A DNA stretch of 63,992 nucleotides, filler included, from an uncultured Methanosarcinales archaeon (GTDB taxonomy: Archaea > Nanobdellota > Nanobdellia > Woesearchaeales > JACPBV01): assembly GCA_964492935.1 (NCBI GenBank). It is 3 parts of 3 records of this genome, joined end to end, with 100 filler letters (N's around TTAATTAATTAA, not from the genome) between each part and the next. Parts side by side here need not be neighbours in the genome. Positions count along the whole stretch, not along the records: positions 22,531 to 44,351 come from CAZBLF010000019.1; 2 more parts are not named here. One strand, 5' to 3'. Below are positions 27,901 to 33,900 of this stretch, in pieces; the first letter of the stretch is position 1; every line of letters begins with the position of its first letter. Position numbers: made by a program.

Positions 27901-30900
27901 CACTCCCATCCATCCGGCAGATGCTTCTTCTCACCACATGATGTGAATGTAGCGACAAAACCCATGGCCATCATGTGCGGAATCAACACCTTCAATCTCT
28001 ACATCACTTAACGCTTCAGAATTTGCTCAGGTTTACCAAACATCTCCTCAAAGAGCTTCTTCTCGCCCTTCCGCAAATGTTCACGGAACGTAGATAACGA
28101 TTTACCTGCCTCCCCAGACAGCATCTGCAAATCCACCTTGCGAGGATAATTGTAATAGCCACGCTTAGCAGCAAGAGTAACTGCATCCTGCTGAGCAGAA
28201 GTCAAAGAAGGCATCACTTGCCCATATTCCTGCTGCAACGGCTGCGAAGCAATGTTCAAGACTTTAATATTCAAATGTTCCTTCTGCATCATCACCACAA
28301 AACCCCTCAACAACGATTCAGAACTTGAAGCCAACTCCCAATGTTCAACTCCGTCTTTATCCGTTTTAACAGGAGAAAAAAAGAAAATACCTTCAGGCAC
28401 CATCGAGCGAGGATGCTTTTCCAGAAGAGAAAGCTCCTGAGAGAAAAAAACAACATTGCCATCTACCTCAATATCCTTCAACGTAGAATCATTCTTCAAA
28501 TCCTCAACCAATAATTTCAAAGGCTGATCCTCACCCGTCAACGTCTCATAATACGAATACCGTGCCGTTTCAGAAGAAACAGAGAACGGCAACGTCATAC
28601 CCAACGAAGTAACCTTGTACCGCTCACACCGCTTACCCATAACAGAAAGATCATAACGTAACGTTAAACGTGCTACCCACATACAAAATATCAAGAATAC
28701 ACAATATTTAAAGGTTTTGAAAGAAAATTTTCAATTTTTGTAACTTACCCTAAAGCTCTACGAACGCCAGTACATTCGCATGACTGAACGCCTTCAATTT
28801 CTTTTAAGCTAGCTTCAACTTCGTCAGGACTTCCTTTGTCCTCATCATACGCAAACGTAATATTCAAAGCCTTCAAACCAAAAGCAATCGGTTCAACCTC
28901 GATTTCCATCTTAGTTTCACCAGCAAATGCAGTAACCTTTTCTTTAACGCTGCCTTGAACAGAATCCAAATCTACATCAGGAGATTCAGGCATAATCTTT
29001 AACGTTACAATAACCAATCCCATCTTAGTTTGGTCCTAGAAAACCGCATTCCGGGCAGGTATATTGTGCACCCAACTTGCGTGCGTGAGAACTTCGTACA
29101 ATTTGAAAATTACATCCAGGGCAGGGAAACTTAACGCTGCCTCTAGCATTAGTAATGCGTTCGTGCTTAGTAGTACATTCAGGATGTTCAGTCATCTTTT
29201 AGCTATATTCCTCTTACGCTTTTCCTTTCTCATGCGCTTTCGCTGCCATTTCCAACGCATCTGGCGCTTTTTCTTCCATCTTCGTGAACTTCTTTTCATG
29301 TGTTGTTATCTTCAGGAACCTAGTCCTTTAAAACCTCATTAACTTGAATGTAAACTCAGAAAACGCAACTCGTTTAAAAAGCTTTGGTAACAAAACCAAG
29401 AGAATGTCTCATTCTCGCTGGCTTTGGGATGGTTTCATCCCAAACGCCTAGCTTTATAATGATACTCCTAACTTCAAGACCATGGATTACATAGTAAAGC
29501 GCCTGGAACGTGAAGATAATATAGATTCAATTGCAGAACATGAAATGGTTGAACTCCACTACTTGGAGCAGATCCGGAAGGGAACGCTAACAAGGTATCT
29601 AGAATTACATTGGCAGACGGGAGCGGTGAGAAGTCAAGCGATAGATGATCCATTCGCTGAAACCTATACGTACGACTTCCTAGTCGAAGAAGCAAGACAA
29701 CTAAGAAGTTTTCTAAAAGAGACGTTCCAGTGGGATTACCATCCAGATATCAGGGGATTCTCAAATAAAGGCGAAGCAACCCAAAAGTTATTTGGAAGCC
29801 TCCTAGATGATATAGATTTGTAAACTAGGAACAATAAAGGATGCATTTAAATAATATACACAGTTAGGTTTTCTTATGGAATATCTAGGGTTAACATTAG
29901 ACAAGTTTCAGGAAGATGCCATAAATGCAATCGAACAAGGCAAATCGGTAGTAGTCTCAGCACCCACTGGATCCGGAAAAACATTAATAGCAAATTACCT
30001 CATCGATCTCAAGATTAAGCAAAAGCAGCAAGTCATCTACACCGCACCTATCAAAGCACTCTCCAACCAGAAATACAAGGAATTCATCAATCTCTATGGA
30101 GAAACCAATGTAGGATTGATGACCGGCGACATAGTCGAAAATCCCGATGCACCCATCGTCATCATGACCACCGAAATCTATCGTAATATGGCTATCGCCA
30201 AGGACGAAAGAATAGAAAAGATTTTCGCAGTCGTCTTCGATGAAGTGCATTATATCAATGATATAGAAAGAGGACACATCTGGGAGGAATCAGTCATCTT
30301 CAGCCCCGAAAAAGTGAGATTTCTCTGCCTCTCCGCCACAATCCCCAACGCAAAGGAATTCTCAGACTGGATTGAAAAGATAAAGGGCCACGAAGTCACC
30401 ACCATCACCCATCACAAAAGAATAGTGCCGTTAACCCACAAATTCTACGACATCGAGCTAGGAATCGCAGATCTACAAGAAATTCACGACGTCGCCAATA
30501 TTCCGAATTATCATCATGCCGTAAGAGGCAAACGCAATAAGAGACAACGACCCCAATTTCCAGATCATACTAAACTCATCAAAGAACTCGGCAACGAATT
30601 ACCAGCGCTCTTCTTCTGCTTCTCTCGCGACCGATGTGAAAAGAAGGCCAAAGAACTAGCAGAGACTGGAATGTTCACCAGCTCAATAGAAATCTCAAAT
30701 TTCGTCAGAAAGAAACTACAAGAGGCACCTGATGAAATCTGCAGACTAAAAACAACTAAAATATTGAGAGAAACATTATCCAGACACATAGGATTCCATC
30801 ACGCCGGTTTACTCCCTGTCTTAAAGGAAATCGTAGAAGAACTGTTTGCACGAGGATTAATCAAAGTACTCTATGCCACCGAAACCTTTGCCGTGGGCAT

Positions 30901-33900
30901 CAACATGCCAGCAAGAACAGTATGTTTTGACTCGTTAAAGAAATACGACGGCATCTCACTCAGATATCTCAACACCAAGGAATACTTCCAAATGGCCGGA
31001 CGAGCAGGAAGACGAGGAATCGATACCCATGGCTTAGTCATCACTCAAATCGTAAGAAACGAATTCGACTATGAAAAAATCAAGAAGGTAACGTCAAAAG
31101 ACATCGAACCCATCAAATCCCAATTCAAATTAACCATAAACACCGTATTAAACATGCTCAAATTGCATTCTCAAGAGGAAATCGAGATCATCCTCAAGCA
31201 AAGTTTCCTAGCCTACCAAATGGAGATAAAAAAGAGAAAATTAGACATGAAAACGAGATTCGAGAACAAAATAAAACAACTTGAAAAACTAAACTATGTC
31301 CAAAATCGCCAATTAACCGAAAAAGGCATCTTCGCCTCAAAGATCTACTCAGACGAAATCTTAACAACCGAAATCTTCGCCACCGATAGAACTAATGATC
31401 TAGACGAACATGCAATCTTAATTATATTAGCAGTACTTTCCTATGAACCGCGCGAGAAAGACCGATTCTTCAAACCGAGAAAGAATGCAAAAACCAGAGA
31501 AGTAAGACATCTAGTAGATGACATCCCCCTCACAAGAAAAGATAACCGATTTAGATACGTCTACGAAGCAACCTCTCTAATAGAGCCCTGCCAGAACGAT
31601 GGATCATTTTTCGACATCCTCGACATCACCTCCATCTCCGAAGGAAACTTAATCAGATTCTACAATCAAATCACAGATAGAATCCAACAAATCCAAAGAG
31701 CAAGCATGAACCCACACCTATCGCAAAAGCTAACTCATATACGTGATCGCATCAGAGTATTCTTAGAAGACGTAAATAGGATATAGAGACGGTTAAAAAC
31801 ATAATTCACAATTTTCCAATAATATAACCGGTAAGTTGTCCAGCATATTGAACGCCGAGCGTCAAAGAACCACCCTTAACAAGAGCGAGAGGGAGTTCTT
31901 TCAATTTTTTGAAGGGAATGTGTTCTCCTTCTTTGGCGGGCGTACCGATATGGGTGATTCCTGCTACTGCCATACCCAGGCCTACGTTCATCTTAATTAC
32001 TGTTTGCTCGAGATCAGGATCTAGTGGATTGCCAATCGCCTTCGCATGCCCTATATAGAGATTAAACAAAAACGCCTCAGCATGAACCATCCAGGCCCCA
32101 TATTGTATGTTCTGTTCTCTTGTATTCCTTAGTGATGGCTCTTCATCTTCATGCCACTTGGAATATTCCGGAGGAGAATCAAAGAACTGACTGACCTCGT
32201 GCTCGAGATCAGAATTATCATTACCTTGCAAGCGATCATCCGCATCAGGTACATCTTCGTTGTTCATATTCATATCTCTCAGTTTGAATCGATCAGACAA
32301 AATGAGGCCAACCTTCAAGGTATAGGAGAGCGTGTTTATTTATAAAAGGTCGCATATTTAACTCCTAAACGGTAGTTAAAATAGCACCAGTAGAAATTCA
32401 ATAATAAACTAAATCCGTTTCAACAGTTCTGCTTTCTTACTATCATACTCATCCTGAGTAATCAAAGATTCATCCAATAATGTTTTCAGTTCCACCAGCT
32501 TAGACTTCACATCAACCTTCTGACCATCTTTTCCCACATGAAGAAAGGTAGCTCCCGATTTAGCGCGTGACTCCTCGATCATTCGCATCCTCTTCCTTTC
32601 AACCCATTCCTCTTCCCGTTCCTGAGCAATAGCATAGACTCTTTTAGATTGATCCTTAGGCAACTTATCGATAACAAAGCTCCCATTCCCAAATCTAAAT
32701 TTTAATCTACCTCCAAGCAATCGCTCGCTCAGATGTACATCGATTAAATCTTTCCACAAGTAATCTTCAAATTTGACTCGCAAAATTCCAGGCAAATGTC
32801 TGATAATTCTCCTATTAGTAACGATAATAGAATGCGGCAAAAGGTTAACGACTGGCTTTTGTTGCACCACTACACAGAGCTCTTTCTCATCGCTGGTAAA
32901 CAATTTTTTAGCCCGCTCTATAACTTTCTTCAACAAGACGTCTTTCTGTTCAACATTAATCTTCGATCCAATCGGCATAATAATCAATGAGGAGAACCCA
33001 GATACGACATATAAAGATATCCCTTTGAAAAAGAAAAATGCCCCCAGCGGGATTCGAACCCACGTCGCGGCCTCGAAAGGGCCGTATGATTGACCGGACT
33101 ACACCATGGGGGCATTGATGATTGTGATTGTCAGTTATTTAAAAATGTTACGTGGGCTTGAGCACCGCGAAACGCACTAAGCTGTCGACCGGCTTCTCAG
33201 TCGCCGCGACTACACCATGGGGGCATAGATAAAATTCAACAATAATCAGATTTCTGAATCTGTTTAAATAGTTTTCCTGAATACAGAACTAAAGAAGCAA
33301 TATTTTTATAAACTTACATCGAAATCCAACAAACATGCCAATCCCAAAATGCATGTCCACACAACATCCAGATAATGTGAATTCTCCCTTCTTCGCAGCA
33401 CAACCAGAGTTAGCAGGCGAAGACGAGATTAAAGAAGCATTCTACGCATTCTCACATCTCGGCTGTGACGAACAAATGTGGGATTGCGAAGGAAAAGAAA
33501 CCGACACCTACGTTGTAAAGAAATTATTAACAAAATACAGCAACTACTTCAAAGAGAATGAACTAGGAAAAGATCTCAACTTAACCTTCCGAGTTCCCAA
33601 TCCCACCGTTGAGCAAGCAGAAGCAAAAGTGTTACTAGAAACACTTGAAGGCATTCCCCGATCACACGACTCAGCAAAACTCTTTTACAAGAATGATAAT
33701 TCCCCTATTTTCGAAGTCATTCTTCCCATGACCTCAAGCACTCAAGAAATCAATCGCATCTATCACTATTACAAAGACTTTGTTGCAGGAAAAGAGCAGG
33801 CAAAACTAGCAGACACAACGATAGGGAAATGGATAGGAAACTTTCAACCTAAAACCATAAACGTCATTCCCTTATTCGAAAGCTATGAACATATGATTGG

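What a model noticed while it worked through the whole genome (the two positions that open the first line are those of the whole stretch)
29876..31786. A Ski2/Mtr4-type RNA helicase with DSHCT domain, the eukaryotic exosome helper kind, in a DPANN archaeon
g00820 (636 aa) is a DExH helicase whose five best Swiss-Prot matches are all eukaryotic Ski2 and Mtr4 (38-41% identity over the whole helicase core) and which ends in the DSHCT domain typical of that group, but lacks their arch insertion and N-terminal extensions. I read it as a minimal archaeal counterpart of the helicases that feed RNA into the eukaryotic exosome, working with the Rrp41-Rrp42-Rrp4 exosome encoded here. Archaeal Ski2-like helicases are so far described as two groups, Hel308 and ASH-Ski2; a third, Mtr4-like group almost confined to Nanobdellota would give a simple model for how exosome helicases arose.
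Evidence so far: Pfam DEAD, Helicase_C, DSHCT (49.5 bits, model 2-166 of 172, residues 478-627). Swiss-Prot: mouse and human SKIC2 41% over 465 aa (E 1e-92), yeast Mtr4/Dob1 39%, Arabidopsis MTR4 38%, S. pombe C17H9.02 40%. relatives.tsv: DSHCT in 395 of 822 Woesearchaeales, 400 of 1860 Nanobdellota, 452 of 10117 Archaea, 13% of bacterial genomes. 5.8-billion-protein search: thousands of hits, the best 120 are 624-665 aa, 52-62% identical, the named ones mostly from Woesearchaeota/Nanoarchaeota (two carry the labels 'bacterium' and 'candidate division KSB1 bacterium') and called only DEAD/DEAH box or superfamily II RNA helicase. Exosome genes g00598-g00600 and DnaG g01081 present.
(Added by a program. 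Inside this text positions count along the whole contig: they may not be those of the stretch shown here. "Call 12" and the like, gene names such as g00115 and contig names such as C1 are that model's own, and its searches are not shown. The text may have been shortened before it was handed on; [...] marks where a part breaks off. The agent that wrote the report below was given it as the finding of a first reader that could run no searches.)

Follow-up and report, generated by a model that had tools for sequence, protein, structure and literature searches.

The report
Archless Mtr4/Ski2-type helicase in DPANN archaea
A small archaeon encodes a stripped-down relative of the RNA helicases that serve the eukaryotic exosome, but its closest kin are uncharacterised bacterial helicases, so it is a new archaeal branch of a known family rather than the ancestor of the eukaryotic ones.

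Summary
Window 29876-31786 (+) is an intact 636-aa DExH helicase with a C-terminal DSHCT domain. Its best solved relatives are Mtr4 and Ski2 (E 2e-101; Hel308 9e-42), and its predicted fold overlays the engineered archless human MTR4 (TM 0.85). It has no arch and no N-terminal extension.

The gene is conserved and mostly vertically inherited in the window's order: 160 of 279 sampled genomes, against 2 of 122 in the other orders of the class. A 2024 survey of archaeal Ski2-like helicases found this group (COG4581) only in eukaryotes, so the archaeal clade appears undescribed.

The evolutionary reading is not supported. In a site-heterogeneous ML tree the DPANN clade sits inside a 100%-supported clade with bacterial stalk-only helicases (Bacillota, Myxococcota, Riflebacteria). 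An AU test rejects DPANN plus eukaryotes as one clade (p 0.0099). A full-arch homologue exists in Asgard Hodarchaeales.

No evidence ties the helicase to the exosome. There is no conserved neighbourhood in 21 loci. RNase PH genes occur in 390 of 401 genomes, the helicase in 162.

Best reading: a stand-alone 3'-5' RNA helicase of RNA decay or surveillance, partner unknown. This is a new variant of a known kind, of moderate interest.

The parts
29876..31786 (+). Gene for the 636-aa archless DSHCT-type DExH helicase (P0001)
   Evidence: ORF list and translation; Pfam; PDB matches; AF2 model with pLDDT 87.2 and pTM 0.82
29846..29853 (+). TTTAAATA, a TATA-box-like element centred about 26 nt before the ATG. 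This spacing fits a promoter of its own and a leaderless mRNA (inference from the usual archaeal promoter layout).
   Evidence: Read directly from the sequence. Not tested by any tool.
29903..30358 (+). RecA1 domain: DEAD Pfam match, residues 10-161. Holds motif I APTGSGKT (29-36), Ia TAPIKALSNQK (56-66), II FDEVHY (121-126) and III SAT (153-155).
   Evidence: Pfam, 97.6 bits. Most motif residues are invariant in 46 family members; S33 is 90% or more, V124 and Y126 vary.
30755..31018 (+). RecA2 domain core: Helicase_C, residues 294-381. Holds motif V TETFAVGINMPA (335-346), a predicted beta-hairpin at 355-364, and motif VI QMAGRAGRRG (372-381).
   Evidence: Pfam; invariant columns; strands 355-357 and 362-364 in the model
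31247..31267 (+). The place in the winged-helix domain where relatives carry the arch. It is empty here.
   Evidence: Query 458/464 align to Mtr4 chain 548/809. Query 445-480 holds 35 residues, against 142-169 in 46 'mini-arch' rows and 207-386 in 26 'full-arch' rows, of 142 rows of 600 aa or more.
31307..31756 (+). DSHCT / helical-bundle (ratchet) domain, residues 478-627
   Evidence: Pfam DSHCT, 51.0 bits against a cut-off of 22.7. All-helical in the model.
31640..31702 (+). Ratchet helix, residues 589-609. R594, Q598 and D601 stand at the positions of yeast Mtr4 R1026, R1030 and E1033.
   Evidence: HMMER alignment to Mtr4 chain 4u4c_A with an offset of 75. R594, Q598 and D601 are invariant in the family alignment. 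The roles of the Mtr4 residues come from PMC4267639 (passages).

Best explanation
The gene encodes a naturally archless member of the DSHCT branch of Ski2-like DExH helicases, without the N-terminal extension. This is the branch that holds eukaryotic Mtr4 and Ski2 and bacterial HelY.

Mechanism, inferred from the family:
- The two RecA domains bind and hydrolyse ATP and pull single-stranded RNA 3' to 5' through a ring closed by the winged-helix and helical-bundle (DSHCT) domains.
- A beta-hairpin in RecA2 splits the duplex, and the ratchet helix (R594, Q598, D601) rides on the bases.
- Without an arch it has no platform for arch-binding adaptors. Without an N-terminal extension it lacks the Mtr4 handle for Rrp6-Rrp47 (recalled).
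- So it most likely works as a stand-alone RNA unwinding or RNP-clearing motor in RNA decay, processing or surveillance.

It is transcribed from its own promoter, belongs to no operon, and has been inherited mostly vertically within the window's DPANN order, with many losses. Its nearest relatives are uncharacterised bacterial helicases that carry only a helical stalk at the arch site. Its partner (exosome, ribosome or none) is not known.

Shown: the gene, its domains, fold, conserved motifs, distribution and tree position. Inferred: RNA substrate, polarity and cellular role.
For: Family and fold:
- DEAD, Helicase_C and DSHCT all score over the Pfam cut-offs.
- PDB phmmer gives Mtr4/Ski2 at E 2e-101 and 343 bits, against 147 bits for the best Hel308-type chain.
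- The AF2 model has pLDDT 87.2. Its best Foldseek match is archless human MTR4 6c90_A (E 1.4e-44, TMq 0.85, TMt 0.78). All of ranks 1-34 shown are Mtr4, Ski2 or FRH.
- Most residues of motifs I-VI and R594/Q598/D601 are invariant in 46 sequences.

An archless core can unwind:
- Yeast Mtr4-archless unwinds at 0.49 against 0.59 per min for wild type (PMC4267639, Table 1 passage).

Conservation:
- DSHCT is found in 162 of 401 genomes, 160 of them in the window's order. All listed ORFs but three (378, 488 and 555 aa) are 631-714 aa.
- Helicase sequences cluster by taxonomic family: 23 label changes where 22 is the minimum, and seven families are each one clade at 99-100.

Stand-alone status:
- No neighbour family recurs in more than 3 of 21 loci.
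- A TATA-like box lies about 26 nt before the ATG.

Tree position:
- IQ-TREE LG+C20+F+G4 (PMSF), 53 rows by 627 columns: DPANN clade 99; within a 26-row clade at 100 with Bacillota, Myxococcota and Riflebacteria rows.

Other helicases in the genome:
- The only other helicases that tblastn finds in this genome with P0001 are a split Hel308, an Lhr-type and a DEAD-box protein.
Against: - No biochemical or expression datum exists for any member of the DPANN clade or of the bacterial stalk-only clade. RNA as substrate and 3'-5' polarity rest on homology alone.
- The position of Mtr4 R1030, which reads poly(A), is an invariant Gln here. E1033 is Asp. In yeast, R1030A combined with arch deletion abolishes RNA binding and unwinding. 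A naturally archless protein with Q at this place may therefore behave differently from Mtr4.
- The helicase is missing from 119 of 279 sampled genomes of the order, so its role is dispensable or replaceable.
- The genome is 84.8% complete, so a partner or paralogue could be unassembled.
Confidence: 0.75

Rival explanations
1. The protein is a minimal archaeal exosome helicase that docks on the Rrp4 cap and threads RNA into the Rrp41-Rrp42 ring. It represents the state from which eukaryotic Mtr4/Ski2 arose.
For: - It belongs to the same family as the two eukaryotic exosome helicases.
- The genome has Rrp4-Rrp41-Rrp42 next to proteasome alpha.
- 160 of the 162 helicase-positive genomes also have RNase PH genes. 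This is nearly trivial, since 390 of 401 have them.
- tblastn with P0001 finds no ASH-Ski2-like gene in this genome. The ASH-Ski2 role reported in Thermococcales would therefore be open (PMC7144898, abstract as listed).
Against: - Descent: the DPANN clade groups with bacterial rows at SH-aLRT 100. DPANN plus eukaryotes as one clade is rejected (delta lnL 45.3, AU p 0.0099). A full-arch Hodarchaeales homologue exists.
- Function: there is no synteny with exosome genes in 21 loci.
- 230 of the 390 genomes with RNase PH genes have no DSHCT match.
- The nearest relatives live in bacteria, which by general knowledge lack this exosome.
- The N-terminal extension of Mtr4 and its arch are absent.
Confidence: 0.15
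2. A ribosome-linked surveillance helicase that pulls mRNA off stalled ribosomes or clears structured RNA during translation stress, as Ski2 does in eukaryotes.
For: - Streptomyces coelicolor HelY (SCO1631) is listed among ribosome-associated proteins that rise after tetracycline treatment and belongs to the WblC regulon (PMC7157823, passages).
- A preprint lists 'Mtr4' among 'ribosomal-associated proteins' enriched in a Hodarchaeales guild (10.1101/2024.07.04.601786, one passage).
- Solved Ski2 structures on ribosomes are among the fold matches (5mc6, 7qe0, 9g8o).
Against: - No Ski3/Ski8-like partner was sought or found.
- The Ski2 N-terminal region is absent.
- The helY deletion had only a twofold effect in S. 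coelicolor.
- Actinobacterial HelY lies outside the 38-row clade that holds the DPANN proteins.
Confidence: 0.15
3. A DNA-repair or R-loop helicase acting on DNA or RNA:DNA hybrids, perhaps complementing the split Hel308 of this order.
For: - Hel308 and Pol theta helicase domains are the next-best folds (TMq 0.70-0.75).
- Hel308 is split in the whole order sample.
- Mycobacterial HelY is recalled, not read here, to unwind RNA:DNA hybrids in vitro.
Against: - Sequence and fold are far closer to Mtr4/Ski2 than to Hel308 (343 against 147 bits). The NCBIfam Hel308 model scores 182.6 bits against a cut-off of 1200.
- No repair genes are conserved nearby.
- Both halves of Hel308 are kept in nearly all sampled genomes, so Hel308 is probably functional.
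Confidence: 0.1
4. The helicase subunit of an anti-virus system of the Hachiman (HamB) kind.
For: PADLOC HamB models match the core (best 117.2 bits, residues 7-482). PDB HamB 8vx9_B matches at E 1.9e-14.
Against: - The match covers only the shared helicase core and is far weaker than the match to Mtr4/Ski2.
- The three small flanking ORFs tested have no PADLOC hit.
- The neighbours are housekeeping genes, and no partner is conserved in 21 loci.
- Vertical, family-congruent inheritance is unlike a defence island.
Confidence: 0.02

Closest known systems
Eukaryotic Mtr4 (yeast Dob1, human MTR4/SKIV2L2), especially the engineered archless construct 6C90
   Same: It has the same DExH core, winged helix and DSHCT helical bundle. 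E 2e-101 to yeast Mtr4. Foldseek gives TMq 0.85 to 6c90_A. The ratchet helix is in register and R1026 is kept as R594.
   Different: - No arch (stalk plus KOW/beta-barrel) and no N-terminal extension.
- R1030 is Q598 and E1033 is D601.
- It is not in the eukaryotic clade.
- No TRAMP/NEXT-type partners are known.
Eukaryotic Ski2/SKIV2L
   Same: It matches as well as Mtr4 does (E 3e-101). By the passage read, Ski2 also varies at the R1030 position.
   Different: It lacks the Ski2_N region and the arch. No Ski3/Ski8 context is known.
Bacterial HelY (Actinomycetota; also the about 890-aa cyanobacterial and about 765-aa melainabacterial forms)
   Same: It belongs to the same Pfam architecture family (DEAD, Helicase_C, DSHCT). 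PF08148 rings in Corynebacterium glutamicum and Synechococcus elongatus, 2 of 14 control genomes.
   Different: HelY-type rows (Actinomycetota, Cyanobacteriota, Chloroflexota) fall outside the 38-row clade that holds DPANN, eukaryote and Asgard-like rows. Most carry a long insert at the arch site.
Uncharacterised bacterial 'stalk-only' DSHCT helicases of 735-800 aa (Bacillota, Myxococcota, Riflebacteria, Muiribacteriota, Wallbacteria)
   Same: These are the nearest relatives in the tree (26-row clade, SH-aLRT 100). Identity is 39-46%, and the N-termini are equally short.
   Different: They carry an extra 110-130 residues at the arch site. In the P0134 model these fold as four long helices (448-564) with nearly invariant Cys residues at the tip. 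The DPANN proteins have nothing there.
Asgard (Candidatus Hodarchaeales) full-arch DSHCT helicase, P0226, 1008 aa
   Same: It is archaeal and of the same family. It lies in the same 38-row clade (support 86).
   Different: It has a 282-residue insert at the arch site and a 109-residue C-terminal tail. It forms a separate clade with P0195 and P0242 (91). Its position relative to eukaryotes is unresolved.
Archaeal Hel308 and ASH-Ski2
   Same: They are Ski2-like DExH helicases with a winged helix and a ratchet domain. Hel308 fold match: TMq 0.70-0.75.
   Different: Hel308 scores 147 against 343 bits and is far under the NCBIfam cut-off. ASH-Ski2 has an N-terminal zinc finger (PMC10946056), whereas this protein starts 6 residues before the core. 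This genome has its own Hel308, which is split.

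Membership tests
DSHCT branch of Ski2-like helicases (COG4581: Mtr4/Ski2/HelY) | DExH helicase core with motifs I-VI | tested here: met
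   Pfam DEAD 97.6 bits and Helicase_C 34.6 bits. Motifs GSGKT, DEVH, SAT and QMAGRAGRRG are present, and their core residues are invariant in 46 relatives.
DSHCT branch of Ski2-like helicases (COG4581: Mtr4/Ski2/HelY) | C-terminal DSHCT (PF08148) domain over the curated cut-off | tested here: met
   51.0 bits against 22.7, residues 478-627. In the genome search, 54 bits and over the cut-off.
DSHCT branch of Ski2-like helicases (COG4581: Mtr4/Ski2/HelY) | Four-domain ring fold (RecA1, RecA2, winged helix, helical bundle) closest to Mtr4/Ski2 | tested here: met
   AF2 pLDDT 87.2. All Foldseek ranks 1-34 shown are Mtr4, Ski2 or FRH, with the best TMq 0.85.
Mtr4 proper (nuclear exosome cofactor) | Arch insertion (stalk plus KOW/beta-barrel) in the winged-helix domain | tested here: not met
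   No MTR4_beta-barrel or stalk Pfam match. The alignment jumps from Mtr4 chain residue 548 to 809. There are 35 residues at the site.
Mtr4 proper (nuclear exosome cofactor) | N-terminal extension that binds Rrp6-Rrp47 (feature recalled from the literature) | tested here: not met
   Only 6 residues precede the core. Eukaryote-type rows have 59-377.
Mtr4 proper (nuclear exosome cofactor) | Ratchet-helix arginines R1026 and R1030, 'always arginines' in Mtr4 | tested here: not met
   R594 is kept, but the R1030 position is an invariant Q598. The criterion comes from PMC4267639.
Mtr4 proper (nuclear exosome cofactor) | Branches within or next to the eukaryotic Mtr4/Ski2 clade | tested here: not met
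   It lies in a bacterial-dominated clade at SH-aLRT 100. The AU test rejects DPANN plus eukaryotes (p 0.0099).
Mtr4 proper (nuclear exosome cofactor) | Physical and functional association with the exosome | not testable with these tools
   No synteny. Co-occurrence is uninformative because RNase PH genes are in 390 of 401 genomes. This needs a pull-down or reconstitution.
Ski2 proper (cytoplasmic SKI complex) | Ski2 N-terminal region (PF17911) and arch | tested here: not met
   No Ski2_N match. Four of the 19 eukaryote-type rows scanned carry it.
Hel308 | Score over the NCBIfam Hel308 equivalog cut-off | tested here: not met
   182.6 bits against a cut-off of 1200. The genome has a separate, split Hel308.
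ASH-Ski2 | N-terminal zinc-finger domain before the helicase core (PMC10946056) | tested here: not met
   The protein begins MEYLGLTLDKFQ, and the Mtr4 alignment starts at query residue 6. There is no Cys-rich N-terminus. No COG1202 model was available to score.
Hachiman HamB | Adjacent HamA partner gene | tested here: not met
   The three small flanking ORFs tested have no PADLOC match. The neighbours are housekeeping genes. No partner is conserved.

The most novel reading that the evidence does not exclude
In this DPANN order the archless helicase is nevertheless the working partner of the simple Rrp4-Rrp41-Rrp42 exosome. It would dock directly on the Rrp4 cap without adaptors and thread structured RNA into the ring. 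That would be the first helicase-exosome holoenzyme in Archaea. It would use an Mtr4-type motor acquired or retained independently of the eukaryotic line, and so give a minimal two-component model of helicase-coupled 3'-5' decay.
Probability: 0.15. Interest if true: 0.75.

Novelty: new variant of a known kind. Interest (0 to 1): 0.5.

Why it matters
Work on archaeal RNA decay has counted only Hel308 and ASH-Ski2 (plus a Brr2-like subgroup) among Ski2-like helicases. It has treated the Mtr4/Ski2 group as eukaryote-only (PMC10946056). This gene shows that a large DPANN order keeps a conserved Mtr4/Ski2-type motor in its barest natural form.

- It offers a small protein (636 aa, confidently modelled) for asking what the helicase core does without arch, adaptors or N-terminal handle.
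- It gives an organism-level test of whether an archaeal exosome uses a helicase at all.
- The tree tempers the origin story. The prokaryotic DSHCT family is wide: bacteria with full, stalk-only or no arch; a DPANN order; Hodarchaeales; and possibly giant viruses. The arch has been lost or shortened several times.
- The lineage to watch for the ancestry of the eukaryotic exosome helicases is the full-arch Asgard form, not the DPANN one.

Tried and rejected
- Complex prediction of the helicase (alignment A1) with the genome's Rrp4 (alignment A3 of 30 orthologues): 'no answer', score 0.00 in two runs. This is neither support nor evidence against binding.
- Expression: the look-up of sequencing runs, kind rna, listed no RNA holder.
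- Gene-neighbourhood link: tblastn of 8 window neighbours against 36 DPANN loci gave no hit, but those loci had short flanks. The wider test used 20 stretches of 13-15 kb plus the window. No family occurred in more than 3 of 21 loci.
- Hachiman/defence reading: rejected.
- Hel308 or ASH-Ski2 membership: rejected.
- Trees: the 99-row IQ-TREE mixture run did not finish (two searches returned nothing). I cut the set to 53 hand-picked rows.
- AU test: treekit's own AU test did not finish in three calls. I ran the test with iqtree2 on treekit's two trees under its PMSF site frequencies.
- Taxon labels by cluster look-up were sparse, with 11 of 30 clusters named. The Atlas look-alikes of P0147 are clusters labelled mostly Bacteria (commonest Planctomycetota) and Nucleocytoviricota. 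This is a lead only.
- Literature searches that found no description of the DPANN clade: 'DSHCT'+'archaea' (2 unrelated papers); 'Mtr4'+'archaea'+'exosome'+'DPANN' (1 paper, the 2024 survey); 'Ski2-like'+'Woesearchaeota' (0); 'Heimdallarchae'+'Mtr4' (2). The library lacks most subscription journals, and I did not see the survey's supplementary tables.

Full report
**1. The observation**

The window is two or more contigs laid end to end. Places 1-22430 are contig C18, and the gene lies on C19 (G000:C19:7346-9253) of a 1.15-Mb genome in 57 contigs, 84.8% complete. At 29876-31786 (+) there is an ATG-started ORF of 636 aa.

- Pfam finds DEAD (10-161, 97.6 bits), Helicase_C (294-381, 34.6 bits) and DSHCT (478-627, model 2-166 of 172, 51.0 bits against a cut-off of 22.7).
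- No NCBIfam model claims it. The best is Hel308 at 182.6 bits against a cut-off of 1200.
- Against all PDB sequences, the 21 best are Mtr4/Dob1, Ski2/SKIV2L or FRH (E 2e-101 to 1e-91, about 343-311 bits). The first Hel308-type chain has 147 bits.
- The alignment to yeast Mtr4 runs to query 458 / chain 548 and resumes at query 464 / chain 809, so the arch is missing. Archless human MTR4 (6c90_A) aligns in a single stretch, 6-609.
- An AlphaFold2 model built on 46 family members has pLDDT 87.2 and pTM 0.82. Its best Foldseek match in the PDB is that same archless MTR4 (E 1.4e-44, TMq 0.85, TMt 0.78). Only Mtr4, Ski2 and FRH entries follow, down to rank 34. Hel308 follows at TMq 0.70.

**2. Conserved catalytic and RNA-path features**

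In the 46-sequence alignment the invariant columns include:

- motif I: A29 P30 T31 G32 G34 K35 T36 (S33 is 90% or more)
- motif Ia: T56-K66
- M97 T98 T99 E100
- motif II: D122 E123 H125
- motif III: S153 A154 T155
- motif V: T335-A346
- motif VI: Q372, A374-G381

The model has a beta-hairpin at 355-364 in RecA2. The HMMER alignment has an offset of 75 between chain 4u4c_A and full-length Mtr4, taken from two rows. With it, the ratchet-helix residues R1026, R1030 and E1033 of yeast Mtr4 correspond to R594, Q598 and D601. All three are invariant in the family.

The paper on the Mtr4 ratchet helix (PMC4267639; passages read) reports three relevant points. R1026 and R1030 are always arginines in Mtr4. 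R1030 reads poly(A). Archless Mtr4 unwinds as fast as wild type (0.49 against 0.59 per min). So an archless core can be a competent helicase, but this one lacks the Mtr4-specific arginine.

**3. Context in the genome**

The neighbours are unrelated housekeeping genes: FtsY, PRPP synthase, ScpA, a JAB protein, an HTH_10 regulator and EF-1beta upstream; a bPH/SHOCT protein, archaeal PEP carboxylase and others downstream. Small ORFs without family matches flank the gene. A TTTAAATA element lies at 29846-29853, about 26 nt before the ATG. This suggests a promoter of its own and a leaderless mRNA (inference).

Elsewhere the genome has Rrp4, Rrp41 and Rrp42 beside proteasome alpha (C11:28137-31074). 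It also has a Hel308 split into a 223-aa RecA1 gene and a 1035-aa gene that carries an intein, an Lhr-type helicase and a DEAD-box helicase. tblastn with the protein finds no further Ski2-like gene.

**4. Relatives and distribution**

In the 5.8-billion-protein collection all 8000 scored candidates are significant. The best 120 include the query itself. The other 119 are 624-665 aa and 52-62% identical, all with DSHCT. Those with names are mostly Woesearchaeota or Nanoarchaeota.

Scoring every representative of 1.84 billion clusters gives 21,532 hits at E <= 0.001 and 2,994 at E <= 1e-30.

Among the best 150 plus the query, 142 rows are 600 aa or longer. I measured the length of the segment aligned to query 445-480, where the query has 35 residues:

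| Class | Rows | Residues in segment |
|---|---|---|
| archless | 57 | under 60 |
| intermediate | 13 | 61-118 |
| 'mini-arch' | 46 | 133-169 |
| full-size insert | 26 | 207-386 |

- The full-size rows with long N-termini carry Ski2_N, MTR4_beta-barrel or MTR4-like_stalk domains. Two of them are named Lentinus tigrinus 'antiviral helicase' and Theileria parva DSHCT protein, so they are eukaryotic.
- The mini-arch rows have no Pfam match in the insert. Those with names are Riflebacteria, Bacillota, Muiribacteriota and Wallbacteria.
- An AF2 model of one of them (P0134, pLDDT 90.3) shows the insert as four long helices (448-470, 484-506, 510-528, 537-564) without a beta-barrel. There are nearly invariant Cys residues near the tip. 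This is a stalk without a fist.

The best 80 are Bacillota, Cyanobacteriota, Melainabacteria, Actinomycetota, Chloroflexota/Thermomicrobia, Myxococcota, five Woesearchaeota and one contig labelled Thermoplasmata.

In 401 genomes sampled evenly from the window's phylum (all of one class), DSHCT is found in 162. That is 160 of 279 in the window's order and 2 of 122 in the other orders (denominators counted). It is patchy by family: f12 40/42, f15 13/13, f8 6/6, f22 7/8, f4 11/29, f16 2/11, f14 0/5, f17 0/5. All listed ORFs but three (378, 488 and 555 aa) are 631-714 aa, so all are archless. These tallies include genomes flagged unpublished (G244, G333).

In a tree of 50 helicases from the order, sequences group by taxonomic family. 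There are 23 label changes against a minimum of 22. Families f22, f25, f15, f37, f24, f21 and f70 are each one clade at 99-100. One spurious long ORF and locus L022 were set aside or left out. The gene is therefore old in the order, inherited vertically and lost often.

**5. Phylogeny**

- A FastTree of 142 representatives and one of 100 rows with named loci and Hel308 outgroups agree with the main tree.
- The main tree is an IQ-TREE run under LG+C20+F+G4 (PMSF, quick search, SH-aLRT). It has 53 rows by 627 columns. I picked the rows by hand to represent every clade of the larger trees. The rest were left out because the 99-row run would not finish.
- All ten DPANN rows form one clade (99).
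- That clade lies in a 26-row clade (100) with Bacillota, Myxococcota, Riflebacteria and unnamed mini-arch and archless rows. The order within it is unresolved.
- This 26-row clade, the eukaryotic clade (100, including two short unnamed marine rows) and a clade of three full-arch rows form a 38-row clade (86). One of the three is labelled Candidatus Hodarchaeales (clade support 91). The internal order of the 38-row clade is unresolved.
- Actinobacterial HelY, cyanobacterial/melainabacterial and chloroflexotal forms branch outside.
- The best tree that holds DPANN and eukaryote-type rows together is worse by 45.3 log-likelihood units. It is rejected (AU p 0.0099, KH and SH 0.014, my own iqtree2 run on treekit's two trees with its site frequencies).

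Caveats:
- The search was quick, not thorough.
- SH-aLRT was the only branch support.
- The outgroup is one full Hel308 and two C-terminal halves from the same class, on a long branch (1.51).
- Many rows are unnamed.
- Many rows fail the composition test.

Archless forms also occur inside Bacillota (P0187) and Actinomycetota (P0222), so the arch has been lost or shortened more than once.

**6. Is it tied to the exosome?**

- Twenty stretches of 13-15 kb around the gene in other genomes of the class, plus the window, share no neighbour family in more than 3 of 21 loci.
- RNase PH genes are found in 390 of 401 genomes and the helicase in 162. So 230 genomes with RNase PH genes have no DSHCT match, and 2 helicase carriers (G171, G392) show no RNase PH match.
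- The nearest relatives are bacterial.

None of this excludes a functional link, but nothing supports one beyond family resemblance. Other leads point to ribosomes. S. coelicolor HelY is listed among ribosome-associated proteins induced by tetracycline (PMC7157823, passages). A preprint lists 'Mtr4' among ribosome-associated proteins of a Hodarchaeales guild.

**7. What is known in print**

The 2024 survey of archaeal Ski2-like helicases searched COG1202, COG1204 and COG4581 in archaeal genomes annotated as complete, plus 75 Asgard genomes. It states that the COG4581 group is exclusively eukaryal (PMC10946056; passages read, not the supplements).

My full-text searches found no description of DSHCT helicases in DPANN archaea. 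Databases call these proteins only 'DEAD/DEAH box helicase' or 'superfamily II RNA helicase'. Most subscription journals are outside the library.

**8. Verdict**

This is a real, conserved, confidently folded helicase of the Mtr4/Ski2/HelY family in its barest natural form. It is new as an archaeal (DPANN) clade and as a natural archless variant.

It fails the defining features of Mtr4 proper: arch, N-terminal handle, R1030, and clade membership. It should not be called an Mtr4 orthologue or the root of the eukaryotic exosome helicases.

The most likely mechanism is ATP-driven 3'-5' RNA translocation and unwinding by the four-domain ring, acting alone or with an unknown partner. The exosome partnership is possible (about 0.15) and directly testable.

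Noticed in passing
G000:C7:8269-8937 (+) and G000:C3:981-4085 (-), loci L004 and L006; not in the window: Hel308 is split into a 223-aa RecA1 gene and a separate 1035-aa gene on different contigs. The larger gene holds the rest of the helicase, interrupted by a LAGLIDADG intein. In the 34 genomes of the order sampled, no ORF spans the whole Hel308 model. Matches are to N parts (ORFs 215-350 aa) or C parts (440-569 aa) at separate places. The only full-length match (718 aa) is in a genome of another order. The split therefore looks order-wide.
   Followed up: partly
P0226 (1008 aa) and P0195 (960 aa), representatives: P0226 is a full-arch DSHCT helicase labelled Candidatus Hodarchaeales (Asgard), and P0195 is its sister. 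They branch near the eukaryotic Mtr4/Ski2 clade, unresolved. The 2024 survey found no archaeal COG4581 member. A preprint mentions 'Mtr4' for a Hodarchaeales guild in one line. This is worth its own phylogenetic study.
   Followed up: partly
P0134 residues 448-564 (model mbecb1e4c8822); alignment A2: Bacterial relatives of 735-800 aa carry a 'mini-arch' at the arch site. It is four long helices without the KOW/beta-barrel fist. Nearly invariant cysteines (C478, C534) and a CxxC-like consensus sit at the tip, possibly a zinc knuckle.
   Followed up: partly
L043 (contig labelled Thermoplasmata archaeon), helicase at 3001-4932: This archless helicase nests inside the DPANN clade. Its two neighbouring ORFs are 52% and 43% identical to proteins of the window's genome, and the contig GC is 0.31. 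The taxon label is probably a binning or naming error rather than a transfer.
   Followed up: partly
Genomes G192, G351, G361, G377, G378 (family f55, genus g114, same order): All five genomes of this genus (92-95% complete, two of them single contigs) have no RNase PH match. G192 has no Rrp4 match either. None has the DSHCT helicase. This may be a lineage that lost the exosome.
   Followed up: no
Representatives P0147, P0150, P0161, P0164, P0184, P0196 and kin: This is a second large clade of archless 640-700-aa DSHCT helicases. It is not found in the sampled DPANN genomes and none of its members is named. ESM-Atlas look-alikes of P0147 are clusters labelled mostly Bacteria (commonest Planctomycetota) and Nucleocytoviricota. 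Its hosts are unknown.
   Followed up: partly
window 29482-29823 (+), 29064-29342 (+), 31806-32318 (-): These small ORFs flank the helicase and have no Pfam or PADLOC match. They have no homologue next to the helicase in 36 DPANN loci. They may not be genes.
   Followed up: partly
Loci L143, L147 versus L134, L146 (family f4): Helicases of taxonomic family f4 fall in at least two separate clades of the order-level tree, and only 11 of 29 f4 genomes carry the gene. Either f4 is heterogeneous or the gene moved within the order.
   Followed up: no
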